DNA of 64,000 nt, taken from assembly GCA_964016885.1 (NCBI GenBank), contig OZ024742.1:152396001-152460000 (forward strand), written 5' to 3'. The position numbers and the translations under genes are program-made. This document shows positions 1-50,739 of the stretch, piece after piece (position 1 is the stretch's first letter; the number at the start of each line of letters is the position of its first letter). The stretch is from Eledone cirrhosa (Eukaryota). A model generated the notes under the pieces. The model was not told where the DNA came from and ran no database searches. It was given only the letters and a program-made list of their open reading frames with translations.

Positions 1-24
1 ATATATATATATATATATATATAT

Positions 25-142
25 GAGTGTAAACAGCCACCTAATACCAGGTTCACTGGTTTCGTGAAAACATTACAAGCTGAGGATCCGCTAAGGTGAA
101 ACAATTGTTCTCGGTATGGTGAACTAACTGTTGTGTTACCAC

Positions 143-225
<83 letters not shown>

Positions 226-342
226 AGTGTAAACAGCCACCTAATACCAGGTTCACTGGTTTCGTGAAAACATTACAAGCTGAGGATCCGCTAAGGTGAA
301 ACAATTGTTCTCGGTATGGTGAACTAACTGTTATGTTACCAC

Positions 343-345
<3 letters not shown>
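25..345 (+). ncRNA. Tandem pair of ~120-bp minimal type-I hammerhead-like units separated by (TA)n (period 200 bp)
   Basis: Near-identical units at 25-145 and 225-345. Core CTGAGGA-t-cc-gctaa-gg-t-GAAAC-AATT-GTT at 80-109 and 280-309. Helix III is the palindrome AACAATTGTT; imperfect enclosing stem (gttcact/ggtgaac). Confidence 0.7.
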
Positions 346-383
<38 letters not shown>

Positions 384-387
<4 letters not shown>

Positions 388-960
388 GAGAGACGTAAAA
401 TAAGAAAATTATAAAAATTAACTTACTTACTAAAATTTCACTCCAACTAATTAGTTTCTGAAAGGGAATAAACGTAGTTACCGAAGAAGTGTACGGATAA
501 GCCTTTCGTCATCAGGGAAGTCTATTCTCAGCTAAGTTTCCAGGCAATACGTGGACACAGGGAACTTATACAAAAATAATTCAGTGGATGGAAAAAAGCA
601 AAGCGTGGACTAAGTTCCAAGCCATTGAAAAAATCACTGCCTACTGCGTCGGTGGCAAATTCAAAATAATCAATCACGTGACATCGAGGTCAATCAGTGA
701 AGAGTGGTTTGTTAAGAAGATAGCAGCCGGACTGTTACTATATAGTAGCAGTTTTGGCCAATTTTTGCTCGACACAATAATTTGGAGATAATTATAAAGA
801 ATTAGTACATCTACTGACATATATATACAGATGCATACCTATGCCAGCAAATATATAGGTTTTGTCTTAGTAACTTTGGGGTTCAATGCATGGAGATGCA
901 GAACAATAATATGAGAGACATAAAATAAGAAAATTATAAAAATTAACTTACTTACTAAAA
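384..960 (-). mobile_element. Family Y: non-coding ~525-bp HHR monomer (retrozyme-like), about 1.1 units
   Basis: taaaataagaaaattataaaa recurs at 396 and 921. Homologous to 17432-19050, 23700-24185 and 49924-50656. No RT ORF. Confidence 0.8.
440..522 (-). ncRNA. Hammerhead ribozyme (family Y)
   Basis: Reverse complement reads ttcc-CTGATGA-c-gaaagg...cctttc-a-GAAAC-TAATTA-GTT-ggag. Confidence 0.8.
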
Positions 961-961
961 T

Positions 962-6510: not shown

Positions 6511-8085
6511 TTATGGAGGATAAGTATCTGAAAGTGAGTTAAGTTTATATGAGCTGGAAAGCAAGTGTGATTTCATGTGTGGGCAACTGGTGAACATTTC
6601 TGTTTTTATATTTAGGCAGGTTTTTGGTGATTTAAGGTTCTGTAAAATCCAATATTTTTCACTTATGCAGAGTGTGCATCTTCTTGTTCCTCTTGCATAT
6701 TCTTTAGATTGGTTCAAAATTGACCAATCCAATTTATATTGGATAACTTGGTCTTTCAAATCCCATATTCTGCTAGCCAGAGCTGTTGTGAATCTTTTGT
6801 CTGGATGTCGGAAAGATGCAACATGTGAGTAATAACGCGTTTTGAATTTGTCTTGTGTCATACCCACATATCGTTCGCTGGTGGCTAGTTGGTTGTTGCT
6901 GATGGTTGTCACTTTAGCCGTACATACAATGGCTTTGGTGTGCATTTACCTTGTAATGGGCATTCACTTTTGTCTCTACAGGAGCAATTTTGATGTTCTC
7001 TGGGTGATTTCTTATTGATGATATAAGATTTAATAGGGGGACCGCAGGAGTAGCAATTTTGACACAGTTACTATTGAAGATCTTATAGTATCTATGTGTT
7101 CTAGGGAAATGTTTATCTAAGAGCTCCAGGAATTTTTTGCCTACATTAGTTTTAACAGCTATAGAGTAGGGGGTGTGAACCAGATTATTTTTCTTTTCTA
7201 TTATTATGTTTAAAAGAGTTAGTATTCTTGGGTATGTACTTAATCGGTTCTCTAAATCCGCTATTTTGAAGGGCTTTATTATAGTAGGGGGATGCCTTAT
7301 TGAAAATAGCTTCTGAGGAAGAGAGGGTGGAGATCCTACGGCTAATATTAGGGATACAGTTTTTAAAAAACTATAGGAGGATGGCAAGAGCCTCTATGTA
7401 TATATTTTAAATTTTCATTAGGTTTATGGTATGGTTTATAAGAAGCAGTAGGCAGATCTAGGTTTATATCTAGAAAATTAACATTGGAAAGGTTAGTGTC
7501 AATAGTAATTTTAAGATTAAAACTAGCGAAGGTTTTTATTAAGTCTTTCCTTAATCTATCTAAGTTATGGCCTATGGTGGTATGGGAAAGTATTAGACCA
7601 TCCTCGCGATAAAGCCCAAAAATATGGTTTATGAATTTTTCTTTAAGTGTGTGTAGGAGGAATAGCCCGACTAAATCACAAACATCAGCACTGTCAAAAG
7701 AACCCATTAAGACATCGATTGGGTTCTCTGGGTTAGATATTTTTACCCAAGTGTCATTATCAGTAAAGAGTAGAGCGTTTCTAGCATGCAAGATGGCATT
7801 CTCTTCAATATCAGAAATATTGGTAAACTTTCTAGCGAAATTTAAGGCTTTCGCTAAAAGAGTCTGAGTGATAGACGGGTAGAAATCTACAATGTCAAAT
7901 TGGGTGAATCTAGAACTATTTTTATCTTTAATATTATTAAACCAATGTACTGCGGAAGAGCTATTTATCTATTGGAGTAATTCAGACTTACTTCTAATCT
8001 GTGTGTTTATATTATTTAACATTTTTTTGCTGGCAAGACCGATATCAGTCTTAGCAGGGTTGATTAATCTACAACTAGGACGATT
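6511..8085 (-). pseudogene. Frameshifted PLE RT + GIY-YIG endonuclease
   Basis: Motifs FDIVDFYPSI, MGSFDSADVCDLVG, LYREDGL, VNFLDINLDL, CSCRDKSECPLQGKC, YVGMTQDKFKTRYYSH and CTLCISEK. Confidence 0.92.
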
Positions 8086-17344: not shown

Positions 17345-17399
<55 letters not shown>

Positions 17400-17431
17400 T
17401 ATAGATATATATATACATATATATATATATA

Positions 17432-19046
17432 TGAAAAACGTAAAATAAGAAAATTATAAAAATTAACTTACTTACTAAAATTTCACTCCAACTAATTAGT
17501 TTCTGAAAGGGAATAAACATGGTTTCCGAATGGAACCCATGGAGAAAGCCTTTCGTCATCAGGAAATCTATTCTCAGCTAATTTTCCAGGCGATGCGTGG
17601 ACACGGGGAACGTATACAAAAATAATTCAGTGGATGGAAAAAAGCAAGCGGGGACTAAATTCAAGACATTGAAAAATCACTGCCTACTGCGTCGGTGGCA
17701 AATTGAAAAGAATCAATCACGTGACATCGAGGTTAATCAGTGAGTAGTGGGGTGTTACAAAAGACAGTAGTCGAACTATTACTATGAACTATAGTAGCAG
17801 TTTTGGAACATCTTTGCTCAACAAAATAATTTGGAGATAATTATAAAGAATATAGTATATCTACCAACATATATATACAGATGCATACCTATGCTAGCAA
17901 ATATATAGGTTTTGTCTTAGTAACTTTGTGGTTCAATGCAAGGGGATGCAGAACAATTTTATGGATGACGTAAAATAAGAAAATTATAAAAATCAACTTA
18001 CTTACTAAAATTTCACTCCAACTAATTAGTTTCTGAAAGGGAATAAACATGGTTTTCCGAATGGAACACATAGAGAAAGCCTTTCATCATCAGGAAGTCT
18101 ATTCTCAGCTAATTTCCCAGGCGTGGCGTGGACACAGGGAACATATACAAAAATAATTCAGTGGATGGAAAAAAGCAAGCGTGGACTAAATTCCAAGACA
18201 TTGAAAAAAGCACTGCCTACTTGGTCGGTGGCAAATTCAAAAGAATCAATCACGAGACATCGAGGTTAATCAGTGAGGAGTAGGGTGTTAAGAAGACAGT
18301 AGCCGAATTATTACTATGAACTATACTAGCAGTCTGGGGAAATTTGGAAAATGTTTGTATCAGTTCCCTGTTTAGTAAGTAAGTTCTTATTTTATGTCTT
18401 TCATATAATTGTTCTGCATCCCCTTGCATTGAACCACAAAGTTACTATGACAAAACCTATATATTTGCTAACATAGGTATGCATCTGTATATATATGTTG
18501 GTAGATATACTAATTCTTAATAATTATCTCCAAATTATTTTGTTAAGCAAAAATTGGCCAAAACTGCTACTATAGTTCATAGTAATAGTTCGGCTACTGT
18601 CTTTTTAACAGCCCACTCCTCACTGATTAACCTCGATGTCACGTGATTGATTCTTTTGAATTTGCCACCGACCAAGTAGGCAGTGCTTCTTTCAATGTCT
18701 TCGAATTTAGTCCACGCTTGCTTTTTTCCATCCACTGAATTATTTTTGTATAAGGTCCCTGTGTCCACGCATCGCCTGGGAAATTAGCTGAGAATAGACT
18801 TCCTGATGACGAAAGGCTTTCTCCATGGGTTCCATTCGGAAACCATGTTTATTCCCTTTCAGAAACTAATTAGTTGGAGTGAAATTTTAGTAAGTAAGTT
18901 ATTTTTTATAATTTTCTTATTTTACGTCTTTCATATAATTGTTCTGCATCCCCTTGCATTGAACCACAAAGTTTACTAACACAAAACCTATATATTTGCT
19001 AGCATAGGTATGCATCTGTATATATATTTTGGTAGAGATACTAATT

Positions 19047-19050
<4 letters not shown>
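17432..19050. mobile_element. Family Y array: ~1.7 units on minus (17432-18345) plus ~1.3 inverted units on plus (18372-19050)
   Basis: Period of 530 bp (17441 vs 17971). HHRs at 17485-17567 (-), 18015-18098 (-) and 18798-18880 (+). Confidence 0.88.
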
Positions 19051-19109
<59 letters not shown>

Positions 19110-19118
19110 TATATATAT

Positions 19119-19315
19119 ATAGGAACGAGTAGGACCCCGACGGCTGAGCTCAAGCCGTTTGGACGGCTAATTCTGGACGTCCAGAATTAACCGTCGAAAC
19201 GGCTCGAGCTCAGCCGTCTGGGTCCTACTCGTTCCTATTACCCACTCTAATACCCTAAGTATTGACTACTTTCGTGCGTTATGGTCAACCTGGTTCCTTA
19301 CCACATTTCCTTCGT

Positions 19316-19962: not shown

Positions 19963-22900
19963 CATTTCTGAATTTGTTTAGCAAGATTCTTTATCTGAAA
20001 TCGTGTGTTGAAACCGATATTGTTATACTTTGGGAGGGTCAAGTTGCCAATAAGAAACACTCGCACAAGTTGCTTTCACTTGAATTTATTATAATAAATT
20101 TATAAATTTAGGAATTTATAAATTTATAAATTTCGGGTTGGTTGTTTGGTTCCACAACCAGATAGTTGTTTATATATTGTCAAAGTTCTTTCGTCACACA
20201 TTCTGTGACCTCTTCAGTGACTGGGGATTCTTATCTTTGTTTTTGTGCCTCTCCTTTGTTCTGTCCTACGCCATTTTGTTTCTGTGTGTGTGTTGCGTGC
20301 TCAGTCTGCGCATGCGCAACATCCGGGTGTCTGTGAGTGTTTATATTCGTTTATTTATTTGTTTATTTACATGTTACCGGTTGGTTGTTTGTTCTATGTG
20401 TGTGTGTGTGTTTTCATTTTGTCCTTCATTGTAAGTTGTGATGTTGCTGTTCCACTCATATTTTCTATTTAATTTTGGTTGTAATTCTTTTACGTTTATT
20501 GCCTCTGTGATTTGTCTAAACATTGCGTCTTTTCTGTGTGTAGATTCTATTTTTATTTCTATGTTCTCTAATTTACCCTTATGTTCTATTTTAGCATGTT
20601 GGTAGAGTACAGATGATTCTTTAATATCTTGAAGCTCTCGCCAGTGTTCATTTATCCGTTCCCCTACACTACGAGCTGTCTCCCCTATGTACACTATATT
20701 TTTGTCTCTACATTGTCCTTCAGTAGATCTTATGCTATACACTACATTTCTAGTTTTACAGTTAATATGGGGGCTTAATTTAGAGGTTATACATTTCTTA
20801 TCTATACAGGGGGTTCTTTGAAAAGGGTATGTCTTGCTAATAAGTGTTTTACGGAGGTACCTGGTCTTTCTACTATCTTAATATTGAGTTTATGTTTATA
20901 TAGGGCCCTTCAAAATTTGTAAGCTAATTCACCTCTAGGGGTTGTATCGATGAACATTACACTCTGGTATTTATTACTATTATACCATGAGTTTATTCTA
21001 TTAGCCTTATTCCTAGTTCTTTCTATTCTATTCCAAAATTTGCTCCTATACAAGGGGCAGGTCCCATTTGTGTCATTATTTACCATTTTTCCCCATTTGG
21101 TTCTGGCTCCTCTATACACTCTGATTTTATCTCTCTGATTGTAACCAGAGAACTGCATACGGTGGATGAAGTGTTCTATGTGTCTCTCTAGTTCTTCGGG
21201 TTTGCACATGCGGGATACGTTTCTTATCAGCCGTACCAAATCCGCAATTAGTATGTTGATTTTGGTATGGTCCAAAACAGCCGAGTTTCGGTGGATCAGA
21301 TGTTTGGAAGTCATGGGTTTGGCATAATGGGAATGGAGGATTTGTTTGTTGTTATTAATGGTATCTAACCAGAGCTCTGTGTCTAGTACAGGTAATCGAT
21401 GGTTTGGGTGTTTTCTTGGGTAGTCTATAGTAACTCTAATACGCTGGTGGATTGAGTTAGCTATTTGCTGGATGCTTTCCATTGTGTTTTTCTCTAGTTC
21501 CTGACTGTTCTCTAGTGGGGGTGTCTTAACTACGATGTTTATATCATCAACGTAGCGGGAGTACATTATCAGGGTTAAGGGGTCTTCTAATTGTTCTTTA
21601 AGTTTAAGTTTAAGTCAACTGTCCCACCATACTATGAATAAGTTAGCTATGTCACCTGCAATGCTAACACAAATGGCTGCTCCTTCCTCTTGGGCATATG
21701 TTTTTCCATTAAATTTGAACATATGTTCCTTAAGGGTTAGTTTTATGCTGGCTCCTACCGCATGTGCAATCATTTTCTTCAGTTCATCGTTGTTTTCGGG
21801 TGTCCATGTGGCTCTGGTCCACCCGTTCCATCTATCTGTGTCGGGTTTCTTGGCCATTGAGGTAATGGTAGGTGGTCTGCCTCTTGCTGGTCTTGTAGGG
21901 CACAGGTTGCTAAGGTCATATGTCTCTAGGTAATTATTACTATAGATAAGTTTAAGTAAGAATCCCAGCTCACTGGTATCAATCCCACGGAACTCAACAT
22001 TGCTCTCACTGATCATTTCTACGCATTTCTCCACAGCAAAATCCACGTCAATACATGGATACAGGGACACAACATCCATACTACCTATTATGCAGTTTGT
22101 TAGGTCCCTAGATCGGTTATTCCGGCCGATTCTGCTGAGGAGGTCCTCCGTGCTGTCCCATACATCTGGGGACATTTCAATGATGGGGCGTATGATCAGG
22201 GAGAAGAAGTAGGACAGCCTCTAGTTACTAGCAATGTTAGCTCCACAGACTGGCCGTGTTGGTGGTCCCGTGTCAGGGTCACTGCCCGTTTTATGGTCTT
22301 TTCGAGGCCCATACAACGCCGGCACGTCATTGTTCCAGGCTTGGAAGTTGTTGGCAGTACTTTTATTGGGCTGCATTATATTCGTCCACATCACCATATG
22401 GGCATTGAGGGCTTTTTCTCTATCCTCATGCTGCTGTGGTGTTACCTCTCCTGTGTTAGTGATGTGGGGTTGCATTGCCTGGATGTAGTTTGGTAGGCTG
22501 TCAACCGACATTCTGCCAGACTTGTCTGTTGGAAAGCATGCTATCTCTCCATCACGCGAGCGCTGCATGAGCTTACGCAAGCCATTTGCAGATTTTTCTC
22601 CCAGTGGTTGGGCTTCCATTCTATTATGCTTCTTGCTATACTGTTCTATAACATTTCTAAGTTCGGATCTAGCTATACTAAATTGTGCGTCTGTTTGTTC
22701 ATCGACCTGCGACGGCAATTTCGTACGTTTGTTAATTGGTAAAGTCGTGGCGTGGACTCGTCGCAGGTCGAAGGACTTATCGGAGGGATTATAAAAAGTA
22801 GAGTTCCAGGCTGCTGCTTTATGTGTACTAGTGCTATTGTTATTGTTAGTTGTGTTGTTTCTATTTATATTTCCACCAACATCCTCATGGTTGTTTCTAT

Positions 22901-23650
22901 GTCTCACATAATTACTCATGTCTCTTTCCACTGGCTCATTGTTATTATCTACTCTATTGTGTATGTATGTGTGTTCGTCTTGGTTATTTTCTTTGTCCAT
23001 AGTCTCCCTTCTCCTTTTAATCCTATTACTTTCCCTTATTTCTGTGATTTCTGTGCTACTGTCATTACTTGTTTTCTGTGTCTGTGTGTTTGTTAAGATT
23101 GTGGTGGTGGTGAGAGGCATTGAATGTGTGTGTGTTGTTGTTGTTGTTGATGTGTGCTGTTGTTGATGTGTGCTGTTGTTGATGTGTGTTGTTGTTATTG
23201 TCTCCGTGATGTTATTATTGTTGTGTGTGTTGTTATTGTTGTTTGTGTCTGCGTGTCTGTTGTTGTTGTTTCTGAGTATTATATTATTGTTGGTGTGTGT
23301 GTTGTTGTTATTGTTGTTTGTGTCTGTGTGTCTGTTGTTGTTGGGATGTGTTGTATATGTGTGTGCGTATGTTGTTACTTTTGTTTTTGTTTTTGTTTTT
23401 GAGGCTCCAACGTAATTTTGTAAATGAATTTTTCTATTTCTGACAGACAACTAATCATATTTACCTTCTTGAATGTCGCAAATTTCGGTGGTAGAAGTAA
23501 TACAGATAATTCAACAGGGTCTATTGCCGTGTTGCCGTATATATTTGTGTTGTTGTTGTTGTTGAACTCATCTGTTAATGAGGTGTCGGCCATATTTATA
23601 CCGTCAATTTAGTCGGGATATCTATTGGTATTCTCTACAGTATCCTGATT
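19962..23650 (-). mobile_element. PLE #2, near full length, frameshifted
   Basis: Motifs PTDKSG, PPTRPVCGA, SMDVVSLYP, YSRYVDD, LPVLDTEL and VYIGETARSVGERINEH. Asn/Thr microsatellite expansion in the N-terminal part. Confidence 0.92.
20179..20221 (-). ncRNA. Minimal HHR in the 3' end of PLE #2
   Basis: Reverse complement reads gtca-CTGAAGA-g-gtcaca-gaatg-tgtgac-GAAA-gaac-TT-tgac. Confidence 0.75.
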
Positions 23651-23699: not shown

Positions 23700-24185
23700 C
23701 ATTCTTGAGCAATGTACCTATATATTTGCTAGCATCGATATGCATTTGTATGTATATATATGTTACTAGATATAAATTCTTTATTATTATCTTCAAAATA
23801 TTTGTCGAGCAATACTGGCCATGACTGCTGCTACGGTAGCAGGCTAGCCGCTGTCTTATTAACAACCCACTTTCCACCGATTGACCTCGATTTCACGTGT
23901 TCGATACTTTTTGAATTTGCCACAGACACAGAGGCAGTGATTTTCTCAATGGCTAGGAAGTAAGTCCATGCTTTGCTATTTCCTATTCACTGATTTATTT
24001 TTAATAAGCTTCCAGTTTCCTCGCTTTGCCTGGAACTTATATGAGAATTGACTTTCCTGATGACGGGATGTTTCTCTACACCTTCTTCGGAAGATGTATC
24101 TACTCCATTCCAGAAACTAATTAGTTGGAAGTGATATTTTAGTAAGTAAGTTAATTTTATAATTTTCTTATCTTACGTCTCTTAC
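23700..24185 (+). mobile_element. Divergent family Y monomer with HHR at 24051-24132
   Basis: actttc-CTGATGA-c-gggatg...cattcc-a-GAAACTAATTAGTT-ggaagt. Compensatory changes relative to the other copies. Confidence 0.85.
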
Positions 24186-24218
24186 ATATATATATATATA
24201 TATATACACACATACATT

Positions 24219-24281
<63 letters not shown>

Positions 24282-24990
24282 AATATGAATATATATATGT
24301 ATATATATATATGTATATATATATATATGTATACATATATTTATATACACACATACATTATACATACATATATATATATATGAATATATATATATGTATA
24401 TATATAAGTATATATATATATGTATATATATATATATGTGTATATATATATATACACACACGCATACACACACACATCTATATTTATACACGCACACATG
24501 TTTTTACAACCTACCACCTTTCACACCCTTTGTTTTCCAGCTTCTACAGCTCACTATCTTTCACACACACACGCACTCACACATATACACACACAGTTAC
24601 ACACACATGTATACCCATACACTTACACACACACATCTATATTTATACACGCACACATGTTTTACAACCTACCACCTTTCACACCCTTTGATTTCCAGCT
24701 TCTACAGCCCACTATCTTTCACACACACACACACACATATACACACTTACATTTATACACACACAGTTACACACACATATATATTTATACACACATATTT
24801 TACGGCTTTCACACGCTAGCGCACCCTCTTGATTTAACCCATTTGGTCAGTAGCTTTTGCCACAGCTTATCACGCGCACGCGCATTCTTTCCCTCGTTTA
24901 AATTTTAAATAATTCTCTCCCCATAACGGCATTCCTGTCTTAACGACATCACAACTTTCTCCGCTTGGCCTGTTCCCCCCCTTTTGGAAC

Positions 24991-25028
24991 TTCCCCCGTT
25001 GATGGGCGTGAGCCCGAAATATTGGGAT
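24991..25028 (+). ncRNA. Variant HHR in PLE #3 5' pLTR (same motif at 28420-28457)
   Basis: tccc-CCGTTGA-t-gggc-gtga-gccc-GAAA-TA-TT-ggga. GNRA-capped helix II, non-canonical 5' core. Confidence 0.6.
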
Positions 25029-25192
25029 TAAATCTCCACTACGGTAACCCTTCTACCTTTGTTTTGTTTTCACCTTTGTCTCTCTCAATTTTCACTTTCA
25101 CCTGTTTCTCCTATCTATCATTCACTTCCTACCTCGAGATTTCCCTCTGCATTGTTGTGGCTTTCTTAACTACGTATTTTACACATTTCACA

Positions 25193-27839
25193 ATGCTTCA
25201 AGCAAACTTTAACACCCTCTTATCATTACACCTGAGCCAGGACTTGTTTGCACCCATAAGGGACCTATTCAGACTATCGGAGAATCGTGCCAAACTCGGT
25301 TGCCAAATTACCTTCTTAAAACGCTGCCTAAAGAACAACATCATTCCAACCACCATCAGGAATATACATCTACCCGAATGTTTACGATCACCATCCTTCG
25401 AAAACACCATCCGCCACATTCAACGCACGTTTATCAAGAAAATACTACGACACAACCACCACCAACTGCGACTCCATATACAAACGCTTTCCGAGCACAT
25501 AGATCGTATAGCTCCAACCCTCACCCCTGACCACCAGGTGCAGGAAATACGCAAAGCTATAGATCAGTGTTACCACACCAGAGTCAAATATGATAAACAG
25601 CGCCTTATACGGAAATACGAATGGACTGTAAACAAATACTACAATGACAACATCCGCTCCCACAGACTGACCGATTACAACCACACCAGGGGCAACAGCT
25701 ATACAACACCCTCCGCTACACCCCCCAACATCGATCTACCTACCAACGATGCTTCACACCTCGTTACCGACCTAACCGGTACCCTCACCAACGACGAACT
25801 CGAACTTCTGCGCCTCGGACCCAAGTTCATCATTACACAGCGTCTCGATGATAGACTGAAACTCGACATCGAAACCAACTTCTGTCGGACAGCATATCAA
25901 CTGAAATGGCTAACCGCCATCCAAAACAACACCGAGATCGATTACAACCCCACAATCCACCCCACACTCCCCACGTATCACCTCGACAACCCACTCCACC
26001 CCCCACCCACCAACCACGAACTTGATACTAAACTACTCAGGTTGAAACATTCTATCTCTAACATCCTTTCCCAACACACACACACACAATAAACGCAACC
26101 TCACCAATGCACAATTTAATACTCTCACCAACCTAAGATCCAGGAACCTTGTGTACCTTCCCTCTGACAAGGGGAAAGAATTCTGTGTCATCTCGAGAGA
26201 GACCTACAACAACTTAGCTCTCCAACATCTTAATGACCACAGCCTCTACTCGAAAGTCACAGGGACCTCCTCGACTCTAATCGAGGAAGGCATTAACACC
26301 ATATGGACTAACATCTGTGTCCAACGAAAACTGCCAAAGAAGGTAAAAAAACCAAAAAAAATCCAACATAATGACTCGAAACAGCAAACTACCCACCTTC
26401 TACCACCTGGTTAAAACACATAAACAAGGACCCGATTTGAAAATCAGGCCCATTGTCTCTAGCGTGGAGGGCCCACTCTACAAAATATCGTGGCTGCTCT
26501 CCACACTACTGAAACCCATTCCACACACACTACCAGCCCACGTCTGCAGCTCAAAGGAGGTCTTGGAGCGACTACACCATCTGGAGCCCAACACCAGAAA
26601 GGACAACGGTTATGCCTTCAGTCTTGATGTGGTCGCCCTTTATACCTCCGTACCAGCATCCCCAGCTGTCGACCTGTTGACCGAACGAGTCCGAGCATCT
26701 AACTTACACTGCTTCGGACTCACACACACGGACATCCACCAACTCCTCTCCTTCGTTGTGGATAATGCACTCTTCAATTTCCTCGGCCACACGTATAAAC
26801 AAATCTCTGGGCTACCTATGGGCTCTAGTCTGTCCGGCATACTTGCGATCTCGTACATGGACCACCTGGAACGCAAGGCACTCAATACCTGCCAACCCAA
26901 CGCCGTCGCCTTCTACTCCAGATACGTTGATGACATCCTGATACTTCTTCCCGTGAGATGGCGAATGAAATTCACCAAATCTTCAACGATACTGACCATC
27001 ACGTCGATTTCACCATCGAACACCCAGGAGAAGACGGGTCACTCGCCCTCCTCGACTTCCGTATCAACATCTCAGAAGAAGGAGACATAAACACCACCTT
27101 CTACCGCAAAGCAGCGTGCAAGGACTTATTTGTGCATTACAACTCAGCCCTCCCCAACAACGCTAAGAGAGGCTATGTCCTAAATGAACTGACACGGATC
27201 ACTAACAGATGCAGCGACCCGATGGGTGGTCTCACCCATACCACGCAATTCCGTAATCTACTCAGATCTAATGGTTATCCCAAGCGACTGATTATCGGAA
27301 TTAGAGACCCCAGACCCAATAGACACCCACCCACTAGAAACTTAAATAAAAGCAGGTGCTTCTTTAAAATCCCCCACCTGAGTGAATATACCACGAACGC
27401 CATCCGCAGGGCCATACGGACGGAGGGACTTGACATACATTTGGCCCACACAGGACCTTCGCTGCGAAGATGCCTCTCCAACAAACCCGACCAGTCAGAT
27501 GGGACGTGTTCCCTCAGCAACTGCCCGATACGGGGGGCAGATTGCCTACGCACCTATGTCGTATATAAGATTCAATGCGATAAATGTAACAAGTTTTACA
27601 TAGGTAGCACCATCCGACCCCTACATGTTCGTATCAAGGAACATATCAACACCAACGCATCTTCCTTCCGTAAAAACATCCTTAAATGCGGAAACCCACA
27701 GCGTAGACCCTTGGTCACAGTCCTAGCGACTGAACGCAGCATCGGATCCTTAAGGATAAAGGAAGCACTTGTTATTAAGAACCTCAGACCCCCACTTAAC
27801 AACCGGGCTGAGAGAAATGAGCTGACATGGCTAACTTAA
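25193..27839 (+). pseudogene. PLE #3 ORF (RT + GIY-YIG) with about three frameshifts
   Basis: MLQANF start; motifs PSDKG, LVKTHK..IRPIVS, SLDVVALYTSVP, GLPMGSSLS, YSRYVDD, VVYKIQCDKCNKFYIGST and EALVIKNLRPPLN. Confidence 0.95.
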
Positions 27840-46886: not shown

Positions 46887-47127
46887 AAAAAGTGGAGAAT
46901 AACATGGTCAACAGTACAAAAAAGGGAACTGTTTCCGATGATCTAGTATAGTTAACATCGTATTTAAAATTGAGTGGCACTGTTTTTAGTGTTCAGCAAT
47001 TTTTAGACAACTCTATCAGTGAAACAATTGTTAGACTGCAAATTAAACCCCCTTTTTTGTACAATTAACCACATTATTTTCCACTTTTTCAATTTTATTA
47101 CTCCAAGATAAATTTACATAGGAATAC
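46887..47127 (+). ncRNA. Family Z copy B: HHR inside an inverted repeat, plus tail
   Basis: gttt-CCGATGA (46935)...GAAACAATTGTT (47021)-agac. Arms aaaagtggagaataacatggtc / accacattattttccactttt; tail cataggaatac. Confidence 0.7.
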
Positions 47128-47167
47128 AAGTGAAATCATAAACTCGTCATCCAAAGGGGAAGCAACA

Positions 47168-49530
47168 ATGCGGGAACCACCAGCAACCCAACAAATCTAC
47201 AACAACTCACGACGCCCCCGACCCTCCACAGGAGGAGACACAGAAAATCACGTGGTACAACTACTCTACTCAGCGGCCGTAAAGAACAGCTTGGGCCGAT
47301 CATTCTTTGGAGCACTTGATAAATGCTTCCCGAGGGACCATAGATACCACAAGATCTTCAACAGACACACTCTGATGCTCTCGTATTCCACCCCGAGAAA
47401 TCTGGCCCAATACATAGATAGCATCAACAGGAGTAGGCTTAAAAACCAGACACAACCAGAAGATGGCAATACAAGCACTCAGCAGAACCATGTGAAAGGA
47501 GGGAAGGAGGGATCCAGTTCCCACTCAAGAAACCCAAACAGACCCGGGGACCGCCCCACCGCGCCTGGCGGAAGACCACCATATAACACCTAACGGGAAC
47601 CCCAATCTAGACACGCAGATTCGGGGTTTCTGCAGTTGCAGAGGTAGACCACCCTCTGCAACTGCAGAAACCCCGAATCATACCCCCTTGGTAATGAATG
47701 CCTTAAGAAGAACCTAGTATATGGTGGTAGGGTTAAAACCCCCAACTCCGAACACCTCTACCATAGGAGCCACATCAACGAGCTTTAATTACCGCTGGTA
47801 TAACCATCGCCATTCCTTCAATAAGGAGGCCAACAGGAATACTACGGCTCTCTCCGACCTGATCTGGAAGCTTAACCTGGACAGGACCCCGTACTCTCTG
47901 GCCTGGTACATAATCAGGAATGTACCAACCGATAAAGGGGGATCTTGCATATGCAAACTATGTCTGAACGAGACCCTCGAGATACTAAGAGGTGGAAGCG
48001 GCCTGATAAACCTCAGAACCGACTTCTTCGGCACATGCAGACACCTCAGGGCCGGGACCTTCCTCAAGATATATGGACAGTAGCAACACAATAAGAGGTG
48101 AACTCCCCTCAAGCTATAGTGACTTCTCCAGAACATGTAGACACGTCTCGGCCAAACCTCCCTCAAGCTATATGGGCAGTAACAACACCATAGGTTGGGA
48201 ACTCCCCTCAAGCCACAGGGACCAACCCAGGCTGAGCTGACACCATGATAGCGTAGAGATTGATTCTGACACAGCCTTTATAATTTTGCTAACATTGTTA
48301 TAACATACACACATGTTAATTTACCTGATTTTTTATTTTTCAATTTTGATTTTTCATTATTCGTTTGTTATTTGTTTTCTGTTTTCTTCACTTTATCACC
48401 TTATATTTATATTTAAGTTGAGATTGGTTATAACACACACACATTTTATTTGATTATCCTATTTCGTTTTATTCTTTTACCACCTTGTTCCTCCTACCAA
48501 ACTATCCAACATATTTGTGACCTTGAGATTGGTTATAGCACACACACATTTTATCTTATTTTATTCGAATCTTCATTTTATTTTTCACTTTTCATTTTCA
48601 TTTTTCATTTTTCATTACTTTTTCATTACCTTTTCATTAATTTTTCATTTATTCTCTATCTATTATTTATTCTCTGCTTACTTCATTTTATTGCCTTCTA
48701 TTTCTTCATATACATGATAGAACCCCCACCACTACCCCGACCACCCCCACCCCCACGGGAGATGGTGGCAGGAGGGATGAAGAAACACACACACACACAG
48801 ACACTTCTAAATTGTCAGTAGCAGCAAGATATAAGCTGACCACAACACCAACACCACTACCAAAATAAGGGTAGATGTCTGATGTACTTAACAGTAGCAA
48901 ACACAAACACTACAGGGAGCCTCACCCAGAAAGAATTTCTATAGACTTTGGACTGAGGAATACTCTCAAAACTGACCAATGGGAAGTTTGACCTAACAAA
49001 TCTTTATTACATTGAGATGGGTATAACACACACACATTTTATTCGATTATTTTATTTTATTTTATTCCTTTACCATCTTATTCCTTCTACAACTTTATCA
49101 CTTTTTTTAGCTGACTCCAACAATAACACCAGTACCAACATAAGAATAGAGGTCAGATGTACCTAACAATAACAAGAACAACAACTACAGATGGGCTTGC
49201 CTCAGAACGAATTTCTATAGACTTTTGACTGAGGAATGTTCTAACAACTGACCAATGAGAGGAGAAGAGGCCCTTTGACACTGAAATTCGTTTGTTTGAA
49301 TTCATATGATTCCAGTTCCTCAGAGAAATAGCAACCCAACCAGGAATTGGGCATATCAGAGTATTGACAAAGTTATACACCTCAACAACATATGTACTTG
49401 TATATACCACACTAATTCGGACTGCCTGAAGAGGTCACAGCCAAAGATGGCTGTCACCGAAATATATATAACAGTAACAAACGAAGCCAAATTTTAAACA
49501 TTTGACTTATTTATTTCATTTTATTTTATA
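47168..49530 (+). mobile_element. PLE #4 (Naiad-type) 3' part: thumb, zinc linker, GIY-YIG and repeat-rich 3'UTR
   Basis: DKCFPRDHRYHKIFNRHTLMLSYS, CNCRNPES.PLGNECLKKNLVY, IGATSTSFNYRWYNHRHSF, CKLCLNE and CRH. Confidence 0.88.
49421..49475 (+). ncRNA. Hammerhead ribozyme at the 3' end of PLE #4
   Basis: actgc-CTGAAGA-ggtcacagcca-aaga-tggctgtcacc-GAAA-TATATA-TA-acagt. Confidence 0.85.
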
Positions 49531-49567: not shown

Positions 49568-49777
49568 AGGAGGCTTAATCAATCGTCCTTGTTGGCAGTT
49601 TCGGTAGAGGGGCGGACGCCATGCTTTGACGCATAAAGTTACGGCCCTTGCCATTCTGAGTTCAAATCCTGCTGAGGTTAACTTTGCCTTTCATCCTTAC
49701 GGGGTCGATAAAATAAAGTACCAGTAATGCACTTGGTAATTGCTGGCCTTGTGCCAAAAAGTAGAAACAATTATTAT
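49568..49777 (+). mobile_element. tRNA-derived SINE (Nin/Deu-type)
   Basis: A-box-like tggcagtttcgg, B-box gagttcaaatcc, central domain and an attatt tail. Confidence 0.88.
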
Positions 49778-49868
49778 ACTAAACTTTGTACAGCTCGACC
49801 CCTCGCTACTGACCTGAACCTACAAATCGAACCTAAACAAACTATAGTAACTTGACGTTACACTCCCT

Positions 49869-49921
<53 letters not shown>

Positions 49922-49923
49922 TA

Positions 49924-50650
49924 ATTAGTATATCTACCAACATATATATACAGATGTATACCTATGCAAGCATATATATAGGTTTTGTCTTAGTAACTGT
50001 GTGGTTCAATGCAAGGGGATGCAGAACAATTATATGAAAAACGTAAAATAAGAAAATTCTAGTAATTAGCTTACTTACTTAAATTTCACTCCAACTAATT
50101 AGTTTCTGAAAGGGAGTATACATGGAGATCATGCAGAAACCTTTTCGTCATCAGGGAGTCATTCTCAGCTAAGATACCTGGCGATGCGTGGACACAGGGA
50201 ATTTATAAAAAAATATTCAGTGAACTAAATTCCAAGATACTGAAAAAATCACTGCCTTCTTGTTCGGTGGCGAATTCAAAAGAATCAATGACGTGACATC
50301 GAGGGAAATCAGTGAGGAGTGAGGAGTGGGGTGTTAAAAAGACAGTAGCCAAGCTGTTACTATGAACTATAGTAGTAATTTTGGCAAATTTTTGCTCAAC
50401 AAAATAATTTGGAGATAATTATAAGAAGGCAGTGATTTTTTCAGTATCTTTGAATTTAGTCCCCGCTGGATCTTTTCCACCCACTGAATATTTTTGTATA
50501 AGTTCCCTGTGTCCACGCATCGCCAGGTATCTTAGCTGATGACGAAAAGGTTTTTCCATGATCTCCATGTATATTCCCTTTCAGAAACTAATTAGTTGGA
50601 GTGAAATTTAAGTAAGTAAGCTAATTACTATAATTTTCTTATTTTACATT

Positions 50651-50656
<6 letters not shown>
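49924..50656. mobile_element. Family Y: minus copy 49924-50425 plus inverted plus copy 50426-50656
   Basis: HHRs at 50088-50159 (-, helix I actcc/ggagt) and 50536-50602 (+, 5' strand of helix I deleted). Confidence 0.88.

Positions 50657-50739
<83 letters not shown>

What the first reader, a model, noticed from the sequence alone, without database searches (positions are those of the whole stretch)
17432..19050. Family Y: a ~530-nt non-coding, tandem, circularly permuted hammerhead retrozyme (7 HHR copies at 4 loci)
Seen: a ~525-530-bp unit with one HHR and no RT ORF occurs at 384-960, 17432-19050, 23700-24185 and 49924-50656. The copies are head-to-tail multimers that start at different points of the unit, and all are adjacent to (TA)n. 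Known: metazoan non-LTR retrozymes are tandem type-I HHR repeats that yield circular RNAs and are thought to use PLE RT. Inference: this is a retrozyme family copied from a circular or multimeric RNA by the neighbouring PLE enzymes. The monomer seems large for this class and has a long helix II.
Basis: partly seen in the sequence, partly recalled or inferred. Interest (0 to 1): 0.85.

Follow-up and report, generated by a model that had tools for sequence, protein, structure and literature searches.

The report
Penelope-mobilised 530-base hammerhead retrozyme family
A 530-base non-coding repeat with a predicted self-cutting RNA motif occurs over 12,000 times in this animal genome, and because its copies end at two fixed points and pair up back to back it was likely copied by the enzyme of a Penelope-type jumping gene, probably from a small RNA circle: a new member of a known kind whose footprint makes that copying step testable.

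Summary
Seven hammerhead cores at four window loci are confirmed. The unit (507-571 nt, no long ORF, 10 subfamilies) has 12,359 exact core matches genome-wide, and helix II covaries. Of 84 two-arm insertions, 67 are A+B and none A+A or B+B. Units and both arms of one insertion share rare variants about 17-fold above chance, so one template fed each insertion. This is the Penelope-like (PLE) two-start-site 'tail' signature. No coding PLE carries this unit as its pLTR in the sampled loci. Coding Hydra-type PLEs here share the ribozyme layout and end geometry (54/199), and one Hydra/unit chimera exists, so they are the likely helpers. A circular template is likely (about 0.6) but unshown: no RNA run was available, and cleavage is untested. 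Known class (non-LTR retrozyme, non-autonomous PLE). The scan noted the same two-arm pattern on other repeat families of this genome.

The parts
17346..17432 (.). (TA)n target tract at the 3' end of the left arm
17430..18345 (-). Left arm, about 1.7 units; 3' end at site A (unit nt 60, ...TTTCATA|TA), 5' end near unit nt 206-219
17490..18019 (-). One complete 530-nt monomer, predicted cut site to predicted cut site
17485..17568 (-). Type I hammerhead (core 17562-17490), predicted cut between 17490 and 17489
18015..18099 (-). Type I hammerhead (core 18093-18020), predicted cut between 18020 and 18019
18354..18371 (+). Head-to-head junction: an 18-nt piece matching unit nt ~401-418 (17 of 18), likely a template jump
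   Evidence: by eye
18371..19053 (+). Right arm, about 1.3 units; 5' end at unit nt 11 (nt 26-40 deleted), 3' end at site B (unit nt 178, ...TTCTTTATA|TA)
18798..18880 (+). Type I hammerhead (core 18803-18875), predicted cut after 18875; palindromic helix III AACUAAUUAGUU
18936..19053 (+). The 118-nt 'tail' between start sites A and B, with two predicted hairpins
19050..19121 (.). (TA)n target tract at the 3' end of the right arm
381..961 (-). Second locus, about 1.1 units, hammerhead core 515-445, 3' end at site A, 5' end at unit nt 9
23716..24187 (+). Third locus, 0.9 unit of a young 520-522-nt subfamily, core 24057-24126, 3' end at site A
49917..50424 (-). Fourth locus, left arm, core 50154-50093, 3' end at site B
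50423..50659 (+). Fourth locus, right arm, core 50536-50597 with the 5' strand of helix I deleted, 3' end at site A

Best explanation
This is an abundant non-coding repeat with a predicted hammerhead in each 507-571-nt unit, whose copies end at two fixed sites in (TA)n and which is likely a non-autonomous Penelope-like element (non-LTR retrozyme) copied in trans by a PLE enzyme, probably of the Hydra clade and probably from a circular monomer RNA. Shown here: unit, copy number, conserved and covarying hammerhead fold, two fixed 3' ends (A about 60, B about 178 nt past the cut site), (TA)n target, variable 5' ends, the A+B rule in head-to-head insertions, and shared rare variants within an insertion. 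Inferred steps: (1) Tandem copies are transcribed; the promoter is unknown. (2) Two hammerheads pair through the palindromic helix III and cut at GUU, releasing a monomer that a host ligase circularises. (3) A PLE protein dimer binds the 118-nt tail and nicks both strands of a (TA)n tract. (4) One RT starts at A and the other at B, each probably seeded by UA pairing with the nicked target. (5) Each runs back through the ligated junction with a roughly constant chance of stopping. (6) The two cDNAs are joined head to head by microhomology. My odds: PLE-mobilised non-autonomous element about 0.93; circular template about 0.6; Hydra-type helper about 0.6.
For: Copy number: 12,359 exact 17-mer matches, reversed-pattern control 0. 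Units: 76 distinct complete monomers of 507-571 nt, 10 clusters at 90% identity, minimum pairwise identity 70%. Fold: 96.7% of cells paired in 28 copies, covariation 0.309 against 0.135 in shuffles and 0.04-0.09 in slid controls; one helix II pair shows A-U, G-C, U-A and C-G. The core is intact in 173 of 201 spanned sites. Ends: 211 of 233 arms from 141 fetched stretches end at A (106) or B (105), and 203 of the 211 run into (TA)n. Of 84 head-to-head pairs, 67 are A+B, 0 A+A, 0 B+B, and 17 have an arm ending elsewhere (about 7e-21 if independent). The rule was first seen in one sample (28 of 36 pairs) and held in a second (36 A+B, none AA or BB). One template: rare variants are shared by units of one arm at 172 of 520 (9.4 expected) and by opposite arms at 128 of 434 (7.7 expected) (ordered pairs). 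Within-locus distance is about equal for same-arm and opposite-arm pairs and mostly 1.3- to 4-fold below between-locus distance. Arms crossing 1, 2, 3, 4 and 5 cut sites number 148, 45, 6, 1 and 1, which fits a constant stop rate of 2.5 per kb. 63 of 76 second passages cross the cut site. Known PLE biochemistry: two internal RT start sites bound the tail, both target strands are cut and extended, and the protein is predicted to be a dimer (PMC11167929). Helper: coding family F, with a Hydra-type CxCX5C linker, has a long-helix-II hammerhead and ends at about 54 and 199 nt; 5 of its 7 two-arm loci are 54+199. Hydra elements insert into (TA)n (PMC8557442). One chimera fuses a Hydra-type endonuclease coding region directly to unit nt 241.
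Against: Cleavage and circularity are not shown. The hammerhead has weak features: a GUU triplet, a C.A mismatch under helix II, and an active fold 2.5 kcal/mol above the minimum-energy fold as a monomer. In the one PLE studied in vitro, cleavage was not needed for insertion and uncut RNA was the main substrate (PMC11167929). Only 1 of 9 Xenopus retrozyme dimers cut in vitro (preprint). Shared variants would also arise from a linear transcript of a young homogeneous array, and at least one array of about 15 units exists that could serve as master. Coding family F shows the same paired ends in its few two-arm loci, so the A+B rule may reflect the enzyme dimer and not a circle. No coding PLE with sequence homology to the unit was found: the family F tail does not align (z -1.1 to 0.6), and the chimera partner E lacks a hammerhead in its 3' UTR. 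The chimera is a single event. The focal locus is a poor example of within-locus identity: its units differ by 4-7%, like copies elsewhere.
Confidence: 0.6

Rival explanations
1. Same element and same PLE enzyme, but the template is a linear, uncut multimeric transcript from a few long master arrays; the hammerhead only trims ends or is a passenger.
For: In vitro, PLE insertion did not need cleavage (PMC11167929). An array of about 15 units exists. Coding family F pairs its ends the same way. 5' ends pile up just after the cut site (8 against 1.5 expected in the first set; 5 against 2.0, p=0.053, in the second), which suggests that some templates are linear and cut.
Against: Most copies hold less than one full unit (median arm 452 nt; 10 of 211 arms reach 1060 nt), so linear copying would shorten the family unless rare masters feed all 10 subfamilies. 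A multimer offers several A and B sites, yet no A+A or B+B pair occurs among 67. The one long array seen has units about 6% apart, so its transcripts would not give near-identical neighbours such as those of L010, L021 and L173 (1 difference in about 530).
Confidence: 0.3
2. The unit is the pseudo-LTR of an autonomous PLE, and the copies are its 5'-truncated debris.
For: The insertion anatomy is that of PLE ends. Many retrozymes resemble pLTRs (24 of 57 Xenopus families; preprint). One arm is fused to an endonuclease ORF.
Against: Arms continue from the hammerhead back into the unit's own start for up to 5 crossings. Only 1 of 65 single arms touches a PLE ORF without an intervening (TA)n or in the right orientation. 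The other 39 best-scored copies of that ORF stop matching exactly at the junction. The whole unit aligns across subfamilies down to 70% identity. The sample is about 190 of several thousand loci, and the protein queries came from four families only.
Confidence: 0.06
3. A minisatellite or DNA-level mobile repeat spread by recombination or a DNA transposase, with an incidental hammerhead-like motif.
For: The long array shows at least one local duplication (two units differ at 6 sites, the others at 21-42).
Against: Fixed 3' ends with ragged 5' ends, head-to-head arms, dispersal over many contigs and compensatory changes in helix II are reverse-transcription and RNA-structure signatures.
Confidence: 0.04

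Closest known systems
Metazoan non-LTR retrozymes (Cervera and de la Pena 2020, PMC7229834, parts 2-4 of 6 read; Li, Clavereau and Pollet 2026, 10.64898/2026.07.22.740005, parts 1-3 of 5 read)
   Same: Non-coding tandem units with one type I hammerhead each, GC 34-37%, thousands of copies, short palindromic helix III, coexistence with PLEs, proposed PLE-driven copying of a circle.
   Different: The monomer is longer than the 170-400 nt shown as circles, though inside the 51-972 bp range of the preprint. Most copies are sub-dimer, two-armed insertions in (TA)n. Fixed ends and the A+B pairing are not described in the parts read. Expression is not shown here.
Endonuclease-bearing Penelope-like elements and their 'tail' (Frangieh et al. 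2024, PMC11167929, main text read; Craig et al. 2021, PMC8557442, passages and the Hydra section; Arkhipova et al. 2013, PMC3846280, passages)
   Same: Two RT start sites downstream of a hammerhead, a tail on one end only, an inverted 5'-truncated arm, partial tandems, and a (TA)n target as in the Hydra, Neptune and Naiad clades.
   Different: No ORF. The tail is 118 nt against the 30-40 nt described. The start sites carry UA microhomology to the target, whereas the anole element starts at non-homologous sites. No coding relative was found.
PLE-type hammerhead variants (Cervera and de la Pena 2014, PMC4209133, passages)
   Same: [quoted passage not shown]
   Different: Helix II region of 41-53 nt with an internal loop, a second extra A between C11.1 and G12, and a GUU triplet; 'GUU' does not occur in that paper's main text.
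Non-autonomous Chlamys elements such as MRC1 (PMC8557442, passage)
   Same: Non-coding PLE dependants with pLTRs and multicopy head-to-tail insertions.
   Different: Those resemble their autonomous partners at the 3' end and most Chlamys lack a canonical hammerhead; here there is a hammerhead and no sequence match to a partner.

Membership tests
Metazoan non-LTR retrozyme | Type I hammerhead in each repeat unit | tested here: met
   Core intact in 173 of 201 spanned sites; covariation
Metazoan non-LTR retrozyme | [quoted passage not shown] | tested here: met
   53 arms cross two or more cut sites; array of about 15 units; window 17490-18093
Metazoan non-LTR retrozyme | No protein-coding capacity, GC under 50% | tested here: met
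   Longest stop-free frame 55-115 aa, GC 34-37% in 8 representatives
Metazoan non-LTR retrozyme | Monomer size | tested here: inconclusive
   507-571 nt: above 170-400 nt (PMC7229834), inside 51-972 bp (preprint)
Metazoan non-LTR retrozyme | No primer-binding site or polypurine tract | not tested
   No LTR-internal-LTR layout in any mapped locus, but PBS and PPT were not searched
Metazoan non-LTR retrozyme | Self-cleavage of the transcript | not testable with these tools
   Bench test needed; the pile-up of 5' ends after the cut site is only a hint
Metazoan non-LTR retrozyme | Monomeric circular RNA in tissue | not testable with these tools
   Needs RNA data for this organism
Element mobilised by PLE machinery | Two fixed RT start sites bounding a tail | tested here: met
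   211 of 233 arms end at A or B
Element mobilised by PLE machinery | Inverted 5'-truncated arm, tail on one end only | tested here: met
   67 A+B, 0 A+A, 0 B+B among 84 pairs
Element mobilised by PLE machinery | Microsatellite target | tested here: met
   203 of 211 A or B ends run into (TA)n
Element mobilised by PLE machinery | Sequence homology to the ends of a coding partner | tested here: inconclusive
   None with families A, B, E or F; many PLE families were not examined
pLTR of an autonomous PLE | RT-endonuclease ORF directly upstream of the hammerhead region in recurring copies | tested here: not met
   1 of 65 single arms, junction unique among 40 scored hits
PLE-type hammerhead variant | Extra base between 9 and 10.1, G10.1-C11.1, palindromic helix III | tested here: met
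   G-C in 28 of 28, helix III invariant in the aligned copies, which were selected on that motif
Hydra-clade PLE (for helper candidates A, E, F) | RWK, DKT and CxCX5C motifs, C-terminal endonuclease | tested here: inconclusive
   RWK, DKT and CxCX5C in family A; CxCX5C in E and F. No tree was built, and my regular expression also hit 24 of 30 family B loci

The most novel reading that the evidence does not exclude
A Hydra-clade PLE dimer primes twice on one circular retrozyme RNA, one subunit at each start site and each from one strand of a cut (TA)n tract, and both roll through the ligated junction. The genome then holds thousands of records of two-primer rolling-circle retrotransposition by a parasite that shares fold and geometry, but no sequence, with its helper.
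Probability: 0.4. Interest if true: 0.65.

Novelty: new member of a known kind. Interest (0 to 1): 0.45.

Why it matters
That PLE enzymes copy retrozyme circles has been proposed since 2014-2020 on co-occurrence and pLTR similarity (PMC4209133, PMC7229834, the 2026 preprint); the parts I read give no direct test. This family ties that proposal to the two-start-site biochemistry shown for one PLE in 2024 and gives numbers to test: start sites at 60 and 178, strict A+B pairing, one template per insertion, a constant stop rate. It names candidate enzymes (Hydra-type families) and a 530-nt substrate for an in vitro assay that would separate circular from linear templates and explain PLE head-to-head insertions. 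As a sequence family it is ordinary.

Tried and rejected
Rfam scan: no hammerhead hit, only microsatellite-driven miRNA noise. Expression: no RNA holder listed. The three runs listed are contigs of one sample of unrecorded kind; laying them showed the repeat and its junction to (TA)n at 18937 but says nothing on expression and may not be independent. Link to the Neptune-like neighbour: rejected. Families A and E as pLTR donors: no hammerhead before the first (TA)n in their 3' regions, apart from the chimera, and the only strong matches to the unit there came from a separate copy of the unit in L329 (the printed hit list was cut). Family F tail homology: none. An apparent pile-up of 5' ends at unit nt 441-467 was weak (18 against 9.7 for nt 441-460, p=0.01 uncorrected) and includes three copies that share one flank, so it was dropped. 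The apparent compensatory changes in helix I are a one-base indel aligned without gaps and were not counted. Circular folds are more stable than shuffles (z -4.3 to -6.6, 12 shuffles each, 5 monomers), but the antisense strand folds almost as well, so this is weak. 198 of 431 BLAST rows, removed by a length-and-position filter as low-complexity matches to (TA)n (8 inspected by eye), were dropped before the arm counts. The protein homolog search for family A gave unnamed relatives only. One search used mis-numbered columns and was superseded. The 3' ends of a second hammerhead-bearing Hydra-type family (L248) were not examined.

Full report
Observation. Seven hammerhead cores lie at the four places named: CUGAUGA, then 41-53 nt, then GAAACUAAUUAGUU, then GGAG or GGAAG. 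The pattern occurs 7 times in the window against a mean of 0.025 in 200 shuffles. Rfam finds no hammerhead among 137 hits at E<=1. Cut site to cut site is 530 nt (17490-18019, minus strand). The stretch 17430-19053 is two arms pointing away from each other, each ending in (TA)n: about 1.7 units on minus and 1.3 on plus. They are joined through an 18-nt piece from elsewhere in the unit (by eye). The other loci are 1.1 units, 0.9 unit and a second two-arm insertion. One of the seven cores has lost helix I.

Family. The window lies in a 3.0-Gb animal assembly. I did not determine the organism; earlier AI notes call it a cephalopod, which I did not test. A 17-base core pattern has 12,359 exact matches and its reversed control none. 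The first 100 matches fall at about 60 places, which extrapolates to roughly 7,000-8,000 loci. Sixty evenly spaced 10-kb stretches held 2 clear copies and 1 weak one. The 76 distinct complete monomers I hold are 507-571 nt long and form 10 clusters at 90% identity, with a minimum pairwise identity of 70%. Eight representatives have no long ORF. Two subfamilies are young, with best hits at 95-99% identity.

Ribozyme. In 28 aligned copies, 96.7% of cells in the hammerhead helices pair. The covariation score is 0.309 against 0.135 in shuffles and at most 0.09 when partners are slid. The base of helix II occurs as five fully Watson-Crick 6-bp variants, and one pair takes all four Watson-Crick forms. 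The core is intact at 173 of 201 spanned sites, in copies that were partly selected on the core. The extra base after A9, the invariant G10.1-C11.1 and the palindromic helix III match the PLE-type hammerheads of PMC4209133 (passages), which cut poorly as monomers and somewhat as dimers. Here helix III forms no hairpin alone but a -10.8 kcal/mol self-duplex, and the active monomer fold lies 2.5 kcal/mol above the minimum. The GUU triplet and the C.A mismatch suggest a slow enzyme (own knowledge). Cleavage is untested.

Ends. I mapped arms in 141 stretches: 62 covering the first 100 pattern matches on contig C1 and 79 from two subfamily patterns (the long array L320 was kept apart). After dropping 198 low-complexity rows of 431, 233 arms remain. 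Of these, 106 end about 60 nt (A) and 105 about 178 nt (B) past the cut site, and 203 of the 211 run into (TA)n. Both sites sit on a TATA of the unit itself. Among 84 head-to-head pairs, 67 are A+B, none A+A, none B+B, and 17 have an arm ending elsewhere. The rule appeared in the first set (28 of 36 pairs) and held in the second. Most junctions between arms overlap by 0-9 nt. Frangieh et al. (PMC11167929, main text) showed that a PLE RT starts at two internal sites that bound the genomic tail, and that the protein cuts and extends both target strands. Craig et al. (PMC8557442, passages) describe the inverted arm, the one-sided tail and (TA)n targeting. A and B are therefore best read as the two RT start sites, with a 118-nt tail that holds two predicted hairpins, the second with changes on both sides.

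Template. Units of one insertion are closer to each other than to other loci, about equally within and between arms. Rare variants are shared within an arm at 172 of 520 (9.4 expected) and between arms at 128 of 434 (7.7 expected). So both arms and all units usually come from one RNA or one source. Arms crossing one to five cut sites number 148, 45, 6, 1 and 1, as expected from a constant stop rate of 2.5 per kb. Of 76 second passages, 63 cross the cut site and 13 stop within 20 nt after it. That excess was strong in the set where I noticed it (8 against 1.5) and marginal in the second (5 against 2.0, p=0.053). A monomeric circle explains all this simply: one A, one B, no length limit. It is not proven. 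A young homogeneous array transcribed uncut would give shared variants too, an array of about 15 units exists (its units are about 6% apart), and uncut RNA was the main substrate in vitro. At the focal locus the units differ by 4-7%, so it is an older or mixed-template insertion. There is no A>G editing excess.

Helper. The unit is not the pLTR of a coding element in my sample. Of 65 single arms only one abuts a PLE ORF directly. There, a Hydra-type endonuclease coding region is fused to unit nt 241, and the other 39 best-scored copies of that family stop matching at the junction. This looks like an RT template switch, seen once. The window's Neptune-like neighbour also targets (TA)n with two main ends but has a short, unrelated hammerhead. 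Hydra-type families A and E lack a hammerhead in the 3' region read. Four other Hydra-like endonuclease hits are followed by hammerheads built like this one: a long helix II with a mismatch or wobble at its base, then GAAAC-N6-GUH. One of them, family F, ends at about 54 or 199 nt past its cut site, with 5 of 7 two-arm loci 54+199, but shares no alignable tail sequence with the unit. A Hydra-type helper is thus likely but unidentified. Clade names rest on motifs only.

Prior knowledge. Non-LTR retrozymes are an established class: 170-400-nt circles in coral, mussel and axolotl (PMC7229834, parts 2-4 of 6). A 2026 preprint calls them non-autonomous PLE derivatives of 51-972 bp (parts 1-3 of 5; its supplements are closed). 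Circular templates for longer-than-unit copying were proposed in PMC4209133. Eight literature searches listed no paper on this family or on A+B pairing in retrozymes. I saw only listings for most hits, the library lacks most subscription papers, and I did not read the supplementary PLE consensus files of PMC8557442, which may hold related sequences. An Octopus vulgaris repeat annotation has no occurrence of 'ribozyme' in its main text (PMC13282606, passages). Earlier AI notes describe the same two-arm pattern for 310- and 422-nt families of this genome and a similar layout for a 478-nt one. I had recorded the A+B reading before that look-up, and the notes are not independent evidence. No note matched this unit by sequence.

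Verdict. Real, abundant and of a known kind. The value lies in the insertion statistics, which link retrozymes to PLE two-site priming and set up a direct test of the circle.

Noticed in passing
L305:1733-2700 (G000:C1:82324949): Unique chimera: a Hydra-type endonuclease coding region fused directly to nt 241 of the unit, within a head-to-head insertion whose other arm is that PLE's 3' end.
   Followed up: partly
window 6511-7968 (-); L141-L170; L322-L350: Two abundant Hydra-type coding families show no CUGANGA hammerhead in their 3' region before the first (TA)n, although PMC8557442 calls canonical hammerheads universal in Hydra. A rearranged or distant ribozyme was not sought.
   Followed up: partly
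L087:7836-8700, L248:4067-4750, L291, L324: Hydra-like coding elements with hammerheads whose helix II region is about 80-95 nt, with a six-base, mostly palindromic helix III loop. Family F has a 145-nt tail.
   Followed up: partly
window 20374-23450 (-), hammerhead at 20217: Neptune-like PLE family with a short-helix-II hammerhead (28 of 30 loci), two main 3' ends and a (TA)n target; its GIY-YIG query drew 36,188 first-look candidates.
   Followed up: partly
window 1-387, -1127, -1540, -16361, +49426, +50769: At least six further hammerhead-like motifs of other families with palindromic helix III, most next to (TA)n; several recur in random genome stretches.
   Followed up: no
window 19124-19237: A near-perfect palindromic hairpin element directly after the (TA)n tract; relatives flank L006, L224 and L273.
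   Followed up: no
L320 (G000:C1:94666563-94673365): Array of about 15 units, 21-42 differences between units except one pair five units apart with 6, which suggests a later local duplication.
   Followed up: partly
L183, L184, L222 and window 49640-49780: A short interspersed repeat ending in AT-rich sequence precedes three copies that all begin at unit nt 459; they may travel or have been duplicated together.
   Followed up: no
window 24944-27839 (+) and 47069-48083 (+): Broken Penelope/Poseidon-like (RVT_1 and GIY-YIG hits) and Hydra-like PLE copies.
   Followed up: no
G000:C1:349323065-349386139: A segment of about 12.4 kb carrying a two-arm copy of the young 520-nt subfamily is repeated six times in tandem.
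   Followed up: no
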